Positions 38,018-43,690 of a stretch of 64,000 nucleotides of DNA are shown piece after piece. Each line of letters starts with the position of its first letter. Position 1 is the stretch's first letter. Source of the DNA: Fistulifera solaris. Taxonomy: Eukaryota. The stretch spans positions 310,001-374,000 of the forward strand of contig AP026131.1 of NCBI GenBank assembly GCA_030295235.1, in the 5' to 3' direction. The notes below the pieces were generated by a model. That model saw only the letters and a program-made list of their open reading frames with translations, had not been told where the DNA came from and searched no databases. The position numbers and the translations under genes were made by a program.

Positions 38018-39362
38018 ATGATTTCCAAGCAATTCATTTCTCGTCTAGGACGACAGTCTCAAAGAATGTCGGCAAGATGGCAGAGTACCAGTCCATTTGC
38101 GGCGTACGAGATGGCGCCCTTAGATCCGATTATTGGCTTGAACGAAGAGTTTCAACGCGACGACTTTCCTCAAAAGGTCATCGTCGGCGTCGGTGCCTAT
38201 CGTGACGACGCCGGCAAGCCATACGTACTTCCGTGTGTTCGCGAAGCAGAACAAAGACTCGTCGAACAGAAACTAGACATGGAATATTCCGGAATTGTAA
38301 GTTGATGCGTCGTGTCGATCCGTCGTTTTTCGATATTGTCAGAGCACTCACAAACACATCGACGCTTTATAGGCCGGAGACCAGAAGTTTGTGGACCTTT
38401 CCCTTAAATTCGGATACGGAGAAGACTCGAGCGCTTTGAAAGAAGGACGAATTCAAGGTGTTCAGGCCCTTTCGGGCACCGGTGGTCTCCGCGTTTTCGG
38501 TGAATTGATTCGTCGTCATGGACAAAAACACATTTACGTACCCAACCCAACATGGGGCAATCACATCCCTATCTTTCAAAATTCTGGCCTTGAAGTTCGA
38601 AAGTATCGATACTACGATGCCAGTAATAGCAGTTTAGACTTTGACGGCATGATCAAAGATATTCAAGATATCCCTGCCGGAAGTTGTGTTTTGTTGCATG
38701 CCTGTGCCCACAATCCTACCGGAATGGACCCTACACTGGAACAATGGAAGCAGTTGTCGGAACTTTTCAAGAAAAAGCAACTTTTCCCATTCTTTGACGC
38801 TGCCTACCAGGGTTTTGCTTCGGGTGATGCTATTCTCGACGCTGCGTCGTTGCGCATGTTTGTCGACGACGGACATCTTTTGGGTACAATTCAATCGTTC
38901 TCGAAAAATTTCGGATTGTACGGTCATCGTGTTGGTACTCTCTCGGTGGTGGGTAGCAATGCGGACGAAGCCGCGCGTGTGGTGTCACAGATGAAAATGG
39001 TGATCCGTCCCATGTACTCGAACCCGCCTCGCCACGGTGCCCGCATTGTCTCCACAATTTTGGACGACCCAAAATTGAAGAGTGATTTCTATGAACAGTG
39101 CAAGGGGATGGCCAATCGTATTAATACTATGCGCACGAAACTGCGGGATGAATTAGAAGCAGTCGGGTCGACTCGCAACTGGGATCACATTGTGAAACAG
39201 ATCGGCATGTTTGCCTACTCGGGTCTGAACAAAGAGCAAGTAATGGAAATGCGGGCCAAACATCATCTGTATTGCACAGCGGACGGTCGTATCAGTATGG
39301 CCGGTGTCACGACTAACAACGTTTCATACATTGCGAATGCTATGCATGATGTATCCAAGTAA
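38018..39362 (+). CDS. GOT2: Mitochondrial aspartate aminotransferase; intron 38297..38372
   Basis: R/S-rich presequence MISKQFISRLGRQSQRMSARWQS. Motifs GVGAYRDD, QALSGTGGLR, HACAHNPTG, FFDAAYQGF, QSFSKNFGLYG (PLP lysine) and GRISMAG. Confidence 0.95.
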
Positions 39363-39443
39363 ATCTATTGTCATACTTTACGCGTAATAAAGCGATTAGT
39401 TAATAGACTTCTAATTATATTTTGCTGTAATAAACGCTGTATT

Positions 39444-41048
39444 CTATGTATGTGTATCTATGCACGACGATGCACACCAACCTAAGCCGCCTTTGAGCGA
39501 TTTTTGGTGCGATTCGAAACGTTCCGTAATAGTATCGAGGGTGTCATGAAAAGCCTTTACATCATCTTGGTCAAGCTCGAGCTCGTAGCGAGCAACTACG
39601 GAAGGTCTCTTTAGATCCATACGACGAGCAATATCACTCGGCGTGCCGAATATAATGGTGTCGCACTCCACAGCATGGATGGTTGCTTCTAGATCCTTCA
39701 CTTGCTCCTTTCCATACCCCATGGCCGGAAGAACATTCTTCAAATGAGGAAACTTTTCAAACACTTTCTTCAGAGAACCGTGCGCACTGGGACGGGGATC
39801 TACAATTTCAGAAGCACCAAGGTCTTTGGCTAGGACATAACCTGCTCCATACGCCATTCCACCGTGAGTTAGTGTCGGCCCGTCGTCGATCACGAGGACG
39901 CGCTTGCCCTTAACCAAATCAGAAGCCTCTTCAGTTGTAAGATCCTGGCCTTCAGCTGTGACCACAGACCCCGCCAAGAAGATTGGTGCGTCGGGCTTGG
40001 TGACATTCTTTAGTTTTTCGGCCTGCTTATGTGCTTTCTCCTTATCGGCTGGGCTATTGACTTTGCAGACTAGAACTACATCTGCCATTCGGACGTTGGT
40101 TTCTCCGGGGAAATAACGAATTTCATCGGACGGGCGCAACGAATCCACTAGACAGATGTGTAGGTCGGGCTTGTAGAATGGCAGATCATTGTTTCCTCCA
40201 TCCCAAATGATAATATCAGCATCCTTTTCCGCCTCGCGAAGAATCATGGGGTAATCAACTCCAGCGAAGAGAAGAGTACCTTGCTCAATATGACGGAAGT
40301 ATTCTTCGCGCTCCTCAATGGTGCAGTCATATTTGTCCATGTCTTCCATCTTTTCGTATCTTTGGCATCGTTGATTGAGCAAGTTCTTGTCGTAAGGCAT
40401 AGGGTGCCGAATAGCAGCAACCTTCAAGCCCTTGTCTTTGAAGTACTGCAAGCAAGAAAATAGTTTATCAACAGTGAACAGTACATTCGACTTAATCAAC
40501 CGTAAAGACGACGGAGCATTCGACGTACCTTTGCCACATATCGTGTCGCTTGTGATTTGCCCACACCCGTGCGACTGGCGCAAACCGAGATGACGGGCTT
40601 GCTCGATTCCACCATGGTTAATTGAGGAGGAAGTTGGACGAATTTACATCCCGCAGCGTTAGCCCTCGAAGCCAAAGACTGTACCGTGTCGTAACTCAAG
40701 TCCGAGTACGCCATGACGACCGATGTGGCACCGAAGCGCTCGACGAGTTCTTCCAACTTGTCCTCGGGAAAAATTTTGACTCCGTTGGGATAACGATTGT
40801 TGTTCAGATCGTTGTTACACATTTCATTGGGAAACGTACGGTCGTCAATGCCTGGAATTTGAGCAGCCGTGAAGCACACCACTTCGACGTTCGGCTGTTT
40901 CGACCAGTAGGTAATGAAATCGTGAAAGTCTCGTCCTGCTGCTCCCAAAATAATGACCTTCTCTGTCACCTCATCCTTATGATGACCAAACGTTTTCACC
41001 ATAGGGGCGAAGCTCTTTTTTTACGTGTTGTACTGCTCCAGAAAGCAT
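39444..41048 (-). CDS. Arginine-synthetase-like P-loop enzyme (ArcE/COG2403 family, often annotated 'cyclic 2,3-diphosphoglycerate synthetase-like/predicted GTPase'); intron 40446..40528
   Basis: KVIILGAAGRDFHDF, FTAAQIPGIDDR, AYSDL, Walker-A-like SRTGVGKS; the splice gives ATRYVAK|YFKDKG; then IRHPMPY, TIEEREEY, AGVDY, WDGGNND, PGETN, DGPTLTHGGM, VDPRP and LPAMGY. In-frame ATG at 41002; an upstream ATG at 41048 joins if the A run at ~41016-41022 is miscalled. Confidence 0.82.
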
Positions 41049-41611
41049 GTTGAGTGTGTGTTGATGTTTTTCTGATGTTTTCAATTTGTGAGATGATGAT
41101 GAAGTATACAGAACCGTCCATGTATGACATCACGACTCATTATGCGAACCCCCTAACTCATTGTGACATCAAGATGTTGACCTTTTGATTATTTGATTGA
41201 TTGTTTTCTTCTTCGATGGAATAGCCGTCTTCATAGCTCTTCTTCGGCAAGGTCGTCGTCGATTGTTTTGCACGTCGTTTTGTCAAACGCACGATTGACT
41301 CAGCGGTACTTCTTCACTTGAAGTAATATAGTCTTGTCATCTATTTGTAAACCGTCATATGCGAACTCGAACAGGAAACGCGAACTCAGCCATCACAATC
41401 ACAATCACAACCACCATCATGAATCATGAAAAATCAACATCATGATGTTGGACGAGAGACCGTTCTGCGGTAAGAAAGAATGTCGGCTTTACGTTGCTGT
41501 ACTAGAGTGTCGGGCTATTTAGAAAGCGGAAGCGACAAGCTTGCTTCTCATAAATTACGCGATTTCTTTTTCGAATAATTGAACTGAGAACATCGGCGTT
41601 TGCCATACATC
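41049..41611. promoter_or_regulatory. Putative bidirectional promoter with two ACATC-N2-GATGT palindromes
   Basis: ACATCAAGATGT at 41166-41177 and a perfect 16-bp palindrome CAACATCATGATGTTG at 41435-41450; also TGACATCA (~41125) and TGACTCA (~41296). Confidence 0.5.
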
Positions 41612-42715
41612 ATGCTTTCCCGATCGTTGCGACACATCAGCCGATTCATGAGCCGTGCAGAAATTCCAGCGGTAACTACCAGATACATGTCGTCCAATAT
41701 GAATGATCATATTGTAATTGCGCTGGGTGGGAACGCTTTGTTAAAAAGAGGAGAAAAAATGACAATTTCCTATCAGCGACAGAACATCCGAGACGGCATG
41801 CAATCCTTGGCAGGCATAGTACGCAAACACAAAACGACGATTGTGCATGGAAATGGTCCTCAGTAAGTGTCACCTAGCTCTTTTCGTGACTTGCCGGAGA
41901 AGACTCATATTGAAAACCATTATGTATTCAGGGTCGGCCTGCTCATGTTAGAAAGCGATGCATATGAACGACAGACAGGTTTGCAACAGATATCGCTGGA
42001 CGTCTTGGATGCCGAGACAGAAGGAATGATCGGATACATGATTGAACAGGAGCTACAGCCATACCTTTCTCAACACCAAGGTATGGTGACAGTTTTGAGC
42101 CAGATTGTCGTGTCACCCAAAGACCCATCCATGTCGAATCCAACGAAGTTTGTAGGCCCCGTGTACACCAAAGAAGAAGCGGATAAATTATCGGTACCGG
42201 TCAAAGCTGACGGGAACTATTTCCGGCGGGTCGTACCCTCGCCGCAACCGATTAAGCTGGTTCCGCACCAGCTTCGAGTAGTCCAGCAACTTACTGACGC
42301 TGGCTGTATTGTTATTTGCGGTGGAGGCGGGGGTATACCGGTTGTCGAGAAAGATGGCAGGTATGAAGGTATCGAGGCCGTCATAGACAAAGATCGTGCA
42401 GCAACAATGATCGGGAAAGAGATTGGAGCGCAAGGTCTCTTAATTCTGACCGACGTTCCAGCGGTAGCCATCCATTACGGAACGGAACAACAAAAGTACA
42501 TCAAAACAATATCTCCCAATCAGCTTGAGACTCTGATGGATCACTTTCCCGCCGGTTCCATGGGTCCAAAGGTAGAATCTGCCATTGATTTTGTACGACA
42601 AACAGGTGGCTGGGCAGCCATTGGCTCCTTGCAGAATGCTGATGAAATCATAGCGGGCAAGGCGGGAACTACGGTTCGTGACACCCCAACAGATGATCCC
42701 GTTGTATTTTTATGA
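41612..42715 (+). CDS. arcC: Carbamate kinase with a mitochondrial presequence; intron 41863..41931
   Basis: Presequence MLSRSLRHISRFMSR...TTRYMSS. Motifs IVIALGGNAL, spliced HGNGPQ|VG, AETEGMIGY, PTKFVGP, RRVVPSPQP, GGGGIPV, EAVIDKD and GSMGPKV. Confidence 0.95.
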
Positions 42716-42845
42716 GAAAGGCGACATTTAATGATAGTTCAAGATGCTCAGCATCCGAACCAATAGACACATAACGTTTACAGTCGTCATTGCGTAGTTT
42801 GTTCGTTTTGTACGTCAGTCAAATTCAATCGCATCCATCACGAGT

Positions 42846-43690
42846 TCAAGCCATTGTCTGGATGACCCCGCAACACTGACAAGACACGGGCCACATTTCG
42901 TCGACAAAGAATCGTTCTTCATATAATGTACGAGACGAAGGAAAGGCTACGTGTATTGTTTGAGCTGTATATCGATGTAAATGGCAATTGTCCGCGACCA
43001 CTTTCTGAAGCGGATCCAAAAGCTGTTGTTGAACACCAAAGAAGGGTTTCCCATCACCCGGTTCAGTCGCTACGTGTTCGACGTATCCCAACGTTCCGCC
43101 TTGGGGTCTCAACAAACGCTTCATTTCTTGCAGCGCAGCAATGGGATCATTAACACTGCATAGCATAGTACAAAACACAATCGAATCAAAAAGCCGTCTG
43201 GAAACGGCAACGAAGTAGTAATATCCCCAGAAATGAACTGTAAGTCCACGGGAAATTTCTCCAACTTTGACTTGGCATCTTCTTGCACTTTATTGCTGGG
43301 TGTTTTCAAGTCTAGACCCACTAATTCCATCGGTGTAGAGACACGCTGGAAACCTTGATTGTACAAACCGCGCCGAAGGAGGCGACAATCCGACCCCATG
43401 CCGACCTCCAAAATTCGCAAGGGACGTGATGCACCATCATTGACGACGATATTCTCCAGTGCAGTCGTTAAAGTCGAGATGACTCTTCTCTCATGAGCCT
43501 CTGGATAAATGAGATTGCTGATTTGGTTGATCTTCTGAAACGTCGTTCCGTAATAATATGCCGTTCCTGCGGCGAGCGGCGCCTTCCATAGCCAGTCGCG
43601 CCGCATCTCTGGCTGCGAGAGAGCTTCGACTGTCGCTCGTGATGATGTTGCCGTAAGAATGATCCAAAAGAAGACGATCGTACACACCAT
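42846..43690 (-). CDS. Class I SAM-dependent methyltransferase (METTL7/Methyltransf_11-like) with a signal or targeting peptide
   Basis: RILEVGMGS (motif I), LVGLD, LPFPDG(F|D), LCSVNDP..ALQEMKRLLRPQGG...EHV and NCHL. Slip at ~43187-43191. Confidence 0.85.

What the first reader, a model, noticed from the sequence alone, without database searches (positions are those of the whole stretch)
39444..42715. Head-to-head arginine-synthetase-like gene and mitochondrial carbamate kinase: candidate ATP-conserving arginine pathway cluster in a diatom
Seen in the sequence: two intron-containing (so nuclear) genes diverge across ~560 bp. One is an unambiguous carbamate kinase with an R/S-rich presequence. 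The other is a P-loop protein with GAAGRDFH, TAAQIPGI, RTGVGKS, RHPMPY, TIEEREEY, WDGGNND, DGPTLTHGGM and LPAMGY. Established knowledge, from memory: these motifs mark the COG2403 family that contains arginine synthetase (ArcE), described in the archaeon Thermococcus kodakarensis. ArcE interconverts arginine + ADP + Pi with citrulline + NH3 + ATP, and with ornithine transcarbamylase and carbamate kinase it forms an energy-conserving variant of the arginine deiminase pathway. Diatoms have an ornithine-urea cycle with mitochondrial OTC and carbamate kinase. Inference: this alga may run arginine -> citrulline -> carbamoyl phosphate -> CO2 + NH3 with two substrate-level ATP steps (for example in darkness, anoxia or N remobilisation), or make arginine directly from ammonia without ASS/ASL. 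An operon-like pairing of these two genes in a eukaryote would be unusual.
Basis: partly seen in the sequence, partly recalled or inferred. Interest (0 to 1): 0.92.

Follow-up and report, generated by a model that had tools for sequence, protein, structure and literature searches.

The report
Diatom arginine synthetase beside carbamate kinase
A diatom nuclear genome carries a spliced, expressed copy of the recently discovered archaeal enzyme arginine synthetase head-to-head with a mitochondrial-type carbamate kinase gene, which suggests that diatoms may break down arginine in a way that yields ATP.

Summary
On the minus strand lies a two-exon gene (41002..40529, 40445..39447). Its product is 51% identical over its full length to the Thermococcus and Pyrococcus members of the arginine synthetase (ArcE) family, and only remotely like cyclic-diphosphoglycerate synthetase. 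Diverging from it, 609 bp away, is a two-exon carbamate kinase gene with an arginine/serine-rich presequence.

RNA-like contigs show the kinase intron spliced and poly(A) ends for both genes. The proteins match Fistulifera solaris GAX16706/GAX16707.

The two genes are neighbours in both F. solaris subgenomes and in Mayamaea. They share a contig in 13 cases (0.2 expected by chance), but are apart in Nitzschia and Thalassiosira. In prokaryotes the same family often precedes arcC in one operon.

The ArcE identification is therefore well supported. The ATP-conserving pathway is inferred, and three points weaken it:
- This copy has no clear mitochondrial presequence.
- No OTC gene was found in the window.
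- Enzyme activity is untested.

The 2024 ArcE paper already says that a few eukaryotes have homologs. The new points here are that this is a native diatom gene and that its pairing with carbamate kinase is conserved. Verdict: a new member of a known kind, of moderate interest.

The parts
39447..40445 (-). ArcE-like gene, exon 2. It encodes residues 159 to the end, including RHPMPY, CTIEEREEY, WDGGNND, DDGPTLTHGG and LPAMGYG. In the window's frame the stop is 39444-39446. With the read-supported 4-T run the stop is 39482-39484 and the protein ends ...HQNRSKAA.
   Evidence: (1 base left out at 39501 in all four runs)
40446..40528 (-). Intron of the ArcE-like gene: 83 nt, GTACGT...TTGCAG.
   Evidence: One search gives the splice sequence, and the joined frame equals GAX16706.1. 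Cluster member P0248 (493 aa, 1547-nt contig) leaves no room for the intron. No splice joint was listed in the laid runs.
40529..41002 (-). ArcE-like gene, exon 1. It starts MVKTFGHHKDEVTEKVIILGAAGRDFH and includes TAAQIPGI and the Walker A motif RTGVGKS.
40977..41048 (-). Upstream ATG (MLSGAVQ...) that is out of frame in this window. It opens a 23-codon uORF that overlaps the main start codon. In the other F. solaris homeolog it is in frame and adds 15 residues. The difference lies in the T-run 41016-41022.
   Evidence: ORF 40977..41129; P0006; DNA-like contig 40991-41812 matches the window with no gap.
41003..41611 (.). Divergent intergenic region between the two start codons (609 bp). It includes the carbamate kinase 5' UTR, because RNA-like contigs start at 41415-41438. 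It is presumed to be a shared bidirectional promoter.
   Evidence: records 14, 19, 29. That the promoter is shared is an inference.
41612..41862 (+). Carbamate kinase, exon 1. It holds the R/S-rich presequence MLSRSLRHISRFMSRAEIPAVTTRYMSSNMND, followed by HIVIALGGNALL.
41863..41931 (+). Carbamate kinase intron: 69 nt, GT..AG.
   Evidence: joint 41862->41932 in runs X2, X3 and X4, and not in the DNA-like run X1.
41932..42715 (+). Carbamate kinase, exon 2. In the window's frame the stop is 42713-42715. With the 4-T variant the protein ends ...VVFYEKGDI and the stop is 42729-42731.
   Evidence: (1 base left out at 42707 in part of X1 and X3)
39420..39420 (-). Poly(A) addition site of the ArcE-like mRNA.
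   Evidence: loose end of 21 T before 39420 in X2.
42789..42789 (+). Poly(A) addition site of the carbamate kinase mRNA.
   Evidence: loose end of 22 A behind 42789 in X3.

Best explanation
The minus-strand gene encodes a native diatom ortholog of arginine synthetase (ArcE, the ATP-forming arginine deiminase). This P-loop enzyme most likely catalyses arginine + ADP + Pi <-> citrulline + NH3 + ATP.

It shares a 609-bp divergent control region with a carbamate kinase gene whose product carries a mitochondrial-type presequence. With the diatom ornithine carbamoyltransferase, the two would form the 'arginine synthetase pathway': arginine -> citrulline -> ornithine + carbamoyl phosphate -> CO2 + NH3, with up to two ATP per arginine. 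That would give diatoms, in which no ADI pathway has been reported, a use for their otherwise orphan carbamate kinase.

Shown: gene structures, transcription, family membership by sequence and fold, and recurrence of the pairing.
Inferred: the reaction, its direction, the coupling to carbamate kinase and OTC, and the compartment.
For: Family membership
- BLASTP of the product (P0245, which equals the window's spliced translation for 472 of 478 residues) gives 224/435 identities (51%, E 2e-162) with the Thermococcus chitonophagus homolog. It gives 222/436 (51%, E 3e-163) with the Pyrococcus furiosus homolog.
- Michimori 2024 (PMC11032458, Discussion read) says arcE homologs occur throughout Thermococcales and in a few eukaryotes.
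- All 78 invariant columns of a 32-sequence alignment, including the Walker A motif and WDGGNND, are kept in the diatom protein.
- CpgS is only a remote hit: phmmer E 0.0015, and Foldseek 16% identity.
- The AlphaFold model (pLDDT 90.2) hits LpxK 4ehy, the structure the authors superimposed on their TK2200 model.
- The family is single-copy in 130 of the 132 archaeal genomes that hold it.

Link to carbamate kinase
- Among prokaryotic loci with at least 2.5 kb on both sides, a carbamate kinase gene lies within 5 kb in 12 of 35 metagenome loci and 9 of 54 genome loci. It is mostly immediately downstream on the same strand. OTC lies within 5 kb in 5 of 35 and 5 of 54.
- L026 carries arcE-arcC-arcB in a row.
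- In diatoms the two genes have consecutive accessions in both F. solaris subgenomes and in Mayamaea.
- 13 contig lengths are shared between the two hit lists, against about 0.2 expected by chance.

Native and expressed
- Both genes have introns. The kinase splice joint and both poly(A) ends are seen in RNA-like runs.
- The neighbouring genes are ordinary eukaryotic ones.

Direction
- The published K = 10 favours citrulline + ATP (abstract).
Against: - TK2200 itself could not be fetched, so orthology rests on congeneric homologs.
- Only one family member has ever been assayed.
- This copy has only 16 residues ahead of the core. About 35 of the 54 diatom-clade proteins also have fewer than 19 residues there. 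By contrast 76 of 85 carbamate kinase homologs have an extension of 20 residues or more. The two enzymes may therefore sit in different compartments.
- The pair is separated in Nitzschia inconspicua and Thalassiosira profunda.
- The kinase beside it belongs to a eukaryote-wide clade: all 120 best hits look eukaryotic at 50-94% identity. It is only 32-41% identical to the kinases encoded next to prokaryotic arcE, so the pair was not inherited as an operon fragment.
- Diatom OTC groups with the anabolic metazoan-fungal type (PMC5052871, passages), and its reverse reaction is unproven.
- No OTC was found in the window by tblastn with one bacterial OTC query.
Confidence: 0.55

Rival explanations
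1. The enzyme is the same but acts alone. The ArcE-like protein works as an ATP-conserving arginine deiminase, probably in the cytosol. It releases NH3 and returns citrulline to argininosuccinate synthetase/lyase or to storage. Its position next to carbamate kinase is then a leftover of genome history or a shared promoter without metabolic coupling.
For: This copy, and about 35 of the 54 diatom-clade proteins, have fewer than 19 residues ahead of the core, while the kinase nearly always has a long extension. The pair is broken in Nitzschia and Thalassiosira, which keep both genes.
Against: The pairing recurs in raphid lineages and in a Gedaniella-like araphid lineage, far more often than chance. 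The same two families are operon partners in prokaryotes.
Confidence: 0.2
2. The route is anabolic. Carbamate kinase makes carbamoyl phosphate from carbamate for one ATP. OTC makes citrulline. The ArcE-like enzyme makes arginine from citrulline, NH3 and ATP. This would be a cheap way to capture ammonia, for example photorespiratory ammonia, that bypasses CPS and argininosuccinate synthetase/lyase.
For: TK2200 runs in both directions and supported arginine formation in vivo (abstract). The authors propose a biosynthetic role in some bacteria. The Parmales genome paper describes diatom carbamate kinase as a producer of carbamoyl phosphate.
Against: The published equilibrium favours citrulline + ATP, and Ks for NH3 is 3.7 mM. 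The authors argue that where argininosuccinate synthetase/lyase are present, ArcE probably works in degradation. That diatoms have those two enzymes comes from my own knowledge and was not tested here.
Confidence: 0.15
3. The diatom clade has taken on a different, unknown substrate, and the family resemblance misleads.
For: The diatom proteins carry clade-specific insertions: 5 residues in the CNNDxNxN stretch, and 8-14 residues ahead of DDGPTLTHG. Only one family member has been characterised.
Against: Identity to the Thermococcales homologs is 51% over the whole length, and every family-invariant residue is kept.
Confidence: 0.08
4. The gene is bacterial contamination or a dead gene.
For: The closest non-eukaryotic relatives are prokaryotic at 47-58% identity. 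The window's frames are disturbed at both 3' ends.
Against: The genes have spliceosomal-type GT..AG introns and poly(A) tails and eukaryotic neighbours. The gene is present in both F. solaris homeologs, with 18 differences in 469 residues. The 3' end disturbances are 1-base homopolymer differences that are absent from the reads.
Confidence: 0.02

Closest known systems
Arginine synthetase ArcE (TK2200) and the ArcE-ArcB-ArcC arginine synthetase pathway of Thermococcus kodakarensis (Michimori et al. 2024, PMC11032458; PMC13260591)
   Same: Same protein family: 51% identity to the Thermococcus and Pyrococcus homologs, with the same invariant motifs and the same LpxK-like P-loop fold. The gene is linked to carbamate kinase, as in many prokaryotes.
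   Different: This one is a nuclear eukaryotic gene with an intron and a poly(A) tail. It is arranged head-to-head with carbamate kinase, not in a co-directional operon. The kinase carries a mitochondrial-type presequence. There are diatom-specific insertions. No OTC lies nearby. The activity is untested.
Cyclic 2,3-diphosphoglycerate synthetase (CpgS, PDB 8oru/8ork), the name NCBI gives to many homologs
   Same: Distantly related P-loop fold. It is the best structural match in the PDB (Foldseek E 1.4e-16).
   Different: Only 16% identity; phmmer E 0.0015 over part of the protein. The annotation 'cyclic 2,3-diphosphoglycerate synthase' on relatives is most likely a misnomer.
Classical arginine deiminase (ADI) pathway of anaerobic protists and bacteria (ArcA-ArcB-ArcC; Novak et al. 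2016, PMC5052871)
   Same: The same overall conversion of arginine to ornithine, CO2 and NH3, with ATP formed by carbamate kinase. Eukaryotic examples exist.
   Different: The first step would use a P-loop enzyme that yields a second ATP, in place of hydrolytic ADI. Diatoms are not among the 16 protists that paper lists as holding the full ADI set.
Diatom ornithine-urea cycle and its laterally acquired carbamate kinase (Allen et al. 2011, recalled; Vancaester et al. preprint 10.1101/2020.01.24.918219, passages read)
   Same: The carbamate kinase here is the known diatom enzyme. It belongs to the clade shared with dinoflagellates.
   Different: Those accounts name no enzyme that converts arginine to citrulline. 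The ArcE-like neighbour would add that link.

Membership tests
Arginine synthetase (ArcE) family | Full-length sequence similarity to the characterised enzyme TK2200 or its orthologs in Thermococcales | tested here: met
   51% identity over 435-436 residues, E 2e-162 and 3e-163, to the T. chitonophagus and P. furiosus homologs. TK2200 itself could not be fetched.
Arginine synthetase (ArcE) family | Distinct from cyclic 2,3-diphosphoglycerate synthetase, which the authors use as outgroup | tested here: met
   CpgS is matched only at E 0.0015, 21 bits, and at 16% identity by fold. Prokaryotic family members match at 47-58% identity.
Arginine synthetase (ArcE) family | P-loop (Walker A) and the other family-invariant residues | tested here: met
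   78 invariant columns in a 32-sequence alignment are all kept in the window's protein. They include R144-T-G-x-G-K-S150, RHPM-Y, T-EEREY, WDGGNND, DGP-TH-G and PA-GY.
Arginine synthetase (ArcE) family | Fold with an LpxK-like nucleotide pocket, as reported for the TK2200 model | tested here: met
   Model pLDDT 90.2. Foldseek hits LpxK 4lkv, 4ehx and 4ehy at E 1e-8 to 1e-7. The paper names 4EHY.
Arginine synthetase (ArcE) family | Gene next to arcC and/or arcB | tested here: inconclusive
   arcC is met: it lies head-to-head here and is adjacent in F. solaris and Mayamaea. arcB (OTC) was not found in the 64-kb window with one bacterial OTC query. No whole genome is held.
Arginine synthetase (ArcE) family | Catalyses arginine + ADP + Pi <-> citrulline + NH3 + ATP | not testable with these tools
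   This needs an enzyme assay.
Arginine synthetase (ArcE) family | Occurs in place of arginine deiminase in organisms that have carbamate kinase | not testable with these tools
   No genome is held for the window. Novak 2016 lists diatoms with OTC and carbamate kinase but not among the holders of the complete ADI set (passages only).
Carbamate kinase (ArcC, amino acid kinase fold) | Match to curated carbamate kinase models over the whole length | tested here: met
   NF009008 gives 66.9 bits (exon 1) and 296.2 bits (exon 2) against a cut-off of 361. The full-length Mayamaea ortholog and a metagenome ortholog score 366.8 and 370.2. Pfam AA_kinase also matches. TIGR00746 stays below its cut-off (about 320 against 358).
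Mitochondrial presequence proteins | N-terminal extension that is basic, acid-poor and Ser/Thr-rich, with an R-x-[FYL]-S type end | tested here: inconclusive
   Judged by composition only, since no predictor was available. The kinase has 32 residues, MLSRSLRHISRF...TTRYMSS, and 76 of 85 homologs have an extension of 20 residues or more. The ArcE-like protein has 16 residues here and 31 in the other homeolog. About 19 of the 54 clade members have an extension of 19 residues or more.

The most novel reading that the evidence does not exclude
Pennate diatoms run a eukaryotic, partly mitochondrial version of the two-ATP arginine synthetase pathway. Its first and last genes have been kept as a divergent, co-regulated pair since before raphid and araphid pennates split. 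The pathway would let benthic diatoms draw ATP from stored arginine in darkness or anoxia. It would also explain why diatoms keep a carbamate kinase beside a complete urea cycle.
Probability: 0.3. Interest if true: 0.75.

Novelty: new member of a known kind. Interest (0 to 1): 0.55.

Why it matters
Arginine synthetase was described only in 2024, and only the Thermococcus enzyme has been assayed. Showing it as a native, intron-bearing, expressed gene in diatoms would add a new node to the much-studied diatom ornithine-urea cycle. Diatoms are major primary producers.

It would also give a concrete role to the laterally acquired carbamate kinase, whose function in diatoms has never been settled. 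And it points to a possible substrate-level ATP source for dark or anoxic survival.

All of this can be tested directly with a recombinant enzyme assay, GFP fusions and knockouts. Databases currently label these proteins 'GTPase', 'cobalamin synthesis protein P47K' or 'cyclic 2,3-diphosphoglycerate synthase', so the link is invisible in current annotations.

Tried and rejected
- Direct comparison with TK2200 was not possible. I used named Thermococcus and Pyrococcus homologs found by searching with a thermophile-like metagenome protein.
- No whole genome is held for the window. The presence of OTC, ADI, argininosuccinate synthetase/lyase and arginase was therefore not tested.
- The metagenome-contig scan gave 78 prokaryote-like loci and only two short transcript-like diatom loci.
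- The viral-contig scan found no relative.
- No listed holder is on record as RNA. The RNA nature of runs X2-X4 is inferred from the splice joint and the poly(A) ends.
- No splice joint was listed for the ArcE-like intron. RNA-like contigs do not cover 40510-40630 or 41115-41356. Neither gap is used as evidence.
- Contig depths were not used to compare expression.
- The prokaryotic donor is unresolved. In a FastTree of 269 sequences the 65-tip diatom clade (support 1.0), plus two unnamed sister sequences, attaches near Planctomycetota-like sequences with support of only 0.33-0.48.
- Pfam and NCBIfam hold no model for the family. The only hits were sub-threshold (UPF0004 and CbiA for the diatom protein), and cobW matched the Thermococcus homolog only.
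- The ESM Atlas returned only 'putative GTPase' and 'CpgS family' clusters.
- Literature searches found no paper that links arginine synthetase or CpgS-like proteins to diatoms. SI Figs S10 and S11 of Michimori 2024, which name the eukaryotes, could not be seen.
Full report
**What is there.** On the minus strand a gene starts at ATG 41002 (MVKTFGHHKDEVTEKVIILGAAGRDFH...). It runs to 40529, is interrupted by an 83-nt GT..AG intron (40528..40446), and resumes at 40445. The spliced translation equals Fistulifera solaris GAX16706.1 (FisN_21Hh147, P0245) for 472 of 478 residues.

On the plus strand a second gene starts at ATG 41612. It has a 69-nt GT..AG intron (41863..41931) and continues to about 42715. 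It matches carbamate kinase models: NF009008 gives 66.9 and 296.2 bits for the two exons against a cut-off of 361, and full-length orthologs score 366.8 and 370.2. Its first 32 residues are basic and serine-rich. The two in-frame start codons are 609 bp apart. The neighbouring genes are ordinary eukaryotic ones: a class I aminotransferase, an ABC1 kinase, a DEAD-box helicase, a patatin-like protein and a protein kinase.

**Transcription.** I laid four coded runs of one study on 39300-42900.
- One run (X1) behaves like DNA: it covers all 30 bins, including introns and the spacer.
- Three runs (X2-X4) behave like RNA. Each has a contig that skips exactly 41863-41931.
- X3 has a contig ending in 22 A after 42789. 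X2 has one with 21 T before 39420, which is the poly(A) end of the minus-strand mRNA.
- The kinase contigs begin at 41415-41438, so its 5' UTR is about 175-197 nt.
- No joint was listed for the other intron. That splice rests on the reading frame, on the GenBank model, and on cluster member P0248 (493 aa, 1547-nt contig), which leaves no room for the intron.

**Sequence quality.** All four runs lack one base of the T-run 39501-39505, and part of X1 and X3 lack one base of the T-run 42707-42711. With those corrections the proteins end ...HQNRSKAA and ...VVFYEKGDI, exactly as the GenBank proteins do.

**What the P-loop protein is.** Pfam and NCBIfam have no model for it. Several lines place it in the arginine synthetase family.
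- It is 47-58% identical to single-copy proteins in 132 of 301 genomes of one archaeal phylum, and to thousands of prokaryotic proteins labelled 'GTPase' or 'cyclic 2,3-diphosphoglycerate synthase'.
- It is 51% identical over 435 residues to the homologs of Thermococcus chitonophagus and Pyrococcus furiosus.
- Michimori et al. 2024 showed that TK2200 of T. kodakarensis is arginine synthetase. They state that arcE homologs occur throughout Thermococcales, widely in bacteria, and 'in a few eukaryotes'. They also say the family resembles CpgS only weakly (PMC11032458: abstract, Discussion and three Results sections read).
- The window's protein matches solved CpgS only at E 0.0015.
- Its AlphaFold model (pLDDT 90.2) finds CpgS at 16% identity and then LpxK, including 4ehy, the structure the authors compared with TK2200.
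- All 78 invariant columns of a 32-sequence alignment are kept.

I could not obtain TK2200 itself.

**Context in prokaryotes.** I counted loci with at least 2.5 kb on both sides. A carbamate kinase gene lies within 5 kb in 12 of 35 metagenome loci and 9 of 54 genome loci, usually immediately downstream on the same strand. OTC lies within 5 kb in 5 of 35 and 5 of 54. L026 carries arcE-arcC-arcB in a row. Earlier notes of this scan reached the same reading for many bacterial operons. None of them concerned a eukaryote.

**Context in diatoms.** In a FastTree of 269 sequences, all eight named diatom proteins fall in one clade of 65 tips (support 1.0). It has two unnamed sister sequences and no well-supported prokaryotic sister.

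The two genes have consecutive accessions in three places:
- F. solaris subgenome L: GAX10449 and GAX10450.
- F. solaris subgenome H: GAX16706 and GAX16707.
- Mayamaea pseudoterrestris: GKZ00846 and GKZ00845.

Thirteen 'longest contig' lengths are shared between the two hit lists. Six of them are contigs of 4.5-13.5 kb. About 0.2 shared lengths are expected by chance among contigs of 4 kb or more. These cases lie in the raphid clade and in a clade that contains Gedaniella sp., an araphid pennate.

In Nitzschia inconspicua and Thalassiosira profunda the two genes are on different contigs or far apart. Orientation in other species could not be read.

The kinase belongs to a eukaryote-wide clade: the 120 best hits are 50-94% identical and include a dinoflagellate. 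It is only 32-41% identical to the kinases encoded next to prokaryotic arcE. The pair is therefore not an operon fragment transferred whole.

**Compartment.** Of 85 kinase homologs with an intact N-terminus, 76 have a basic, acid-poor extension of 20 residues or more, often ending R-x-[FYL]-S-S. Of 54 ArcE-like clade members, about 19 have such an extension of 19 residues or more. All of these are in the raphid group near Fistulifera and Mayamaea. The rest start 4-16 residues before the core.

This window's copy has 16 residues. An upstream ATG (41048) is out of frame because of a 7-T run. In the other homeolog it is in frame and gives 31 residues. No targeting predictor was available, so this rests on composition only.

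**Reading.** The identification as a diatom arginine synthetase ortholog is strong. The reaction is inferred from one characterised relative. The published equilibrium (K = 10 towards citrulline + ATP) and the authors' own argument suggest the degradative direction wherever argininosuccinate synthetase and lyase exist.

For the coupled pathway: the recurring link to carbamate kinase in two domains of life. The literature also indicates that diatoms have OTC and carbamate kinase but are not among the holders of the full ADI set (PMC5052871, passages).

Against it: the uncertain compartment, the anabolic type of diatom OTC, the loss of linkage in some diatoms, and the absence of OTC from this window.

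**Novelty.** Searches of the paper library for arginine synthetase or CpgS together with diatoms, and for F. solaris with carbamate kinase, found nothing relevant. The 2024 paper's supplementary figures, which name the eukaryotes with homologs, could not be seen. The family and the pathway are known. A native diatom gene and its conserved divergent pairing with carbamate kinase appear to be undescribed.

Noticed in passing
window 39501-39505 and 42707-42711: The window has one base more in two T-runs than the laid reads and the GenBank proteins. This shifts the last codons of both genes: the window reads ...HQKSLKGG...THT and ...VVFL, where the reads and GenBank give ...HQNRSKAA and ...VVFYEKGDI. 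It looks like a homopolymer error of the assembly.
   Followed up: yes
window 40977-41048 (minus), T-run 41016-41022: In this homeolog the upstream ATG (MLSGAVQ...) is out of frame and opens a 23-codon uORF across the main start codon. In the other F. solaris homeolog and a close relative it is in frame and adds 15 residues. The two homeologs may therefore differ in targeting or translation.
   Followed up: partly
window 41612-41862: The GenBank carbamate kinase models of F. solaris (300 aa, GAX16707 and GAX10450) start at an internal Met. They lack the first 49 residues, which hold the presequence and the ALGGNALL motif. RNA-like contigs run from 41415 through the spliced exon 1, which supports the longer protein.
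   Followed up: yes
window 38373-39362 (plus): A class I (aspartate/aromatic) aminotransferase gene converges on the ArcE-like gene. About 58 nt separate its stop codon from the other gene's poly(A) site. I did not examine whether this nitrogen-metabolism neighbour is conserved.
   Followed up: no
proteins P0010, P0011, P0012, P0014, P0022, P0023, P0245 (C-termini): Raphid-clade ArcE-like proteins end in small residues after a basic or histidine-rich stretch (...HHAA, ...HKAA, ...SKAA, ...FAAA, ...KRVA, ...NVRA). Prokaryotic homologs do not. The meaning is unknown.
   Followed up: no
alignment A3, columns about 140-146 and 408-415: There are diatom-specific insertions: five residues in the CNNDxNxN stretch, and 8-14 residues before the DDGPTLTHGG motif. 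The glutamate of the prokaryotic EDGPT motif is aspartate in diatoms.
   Followed up: no
proteins P0087 and P0089: Two unnamed transcript-like proteins (487 and 507 aa) with long acidic C-terminal tails are the sister of the diatom clade. They may come from another eukaryotic lineage.
   Followed up: partly
L026 13213-15456: In a bacterial arcE-arcC-arcB operon, the next gene on the same strand encodes a 748-aa protein with no NCBIfam match. Earlier notes of this scan mention similar unknown partners.
   Followed up: no
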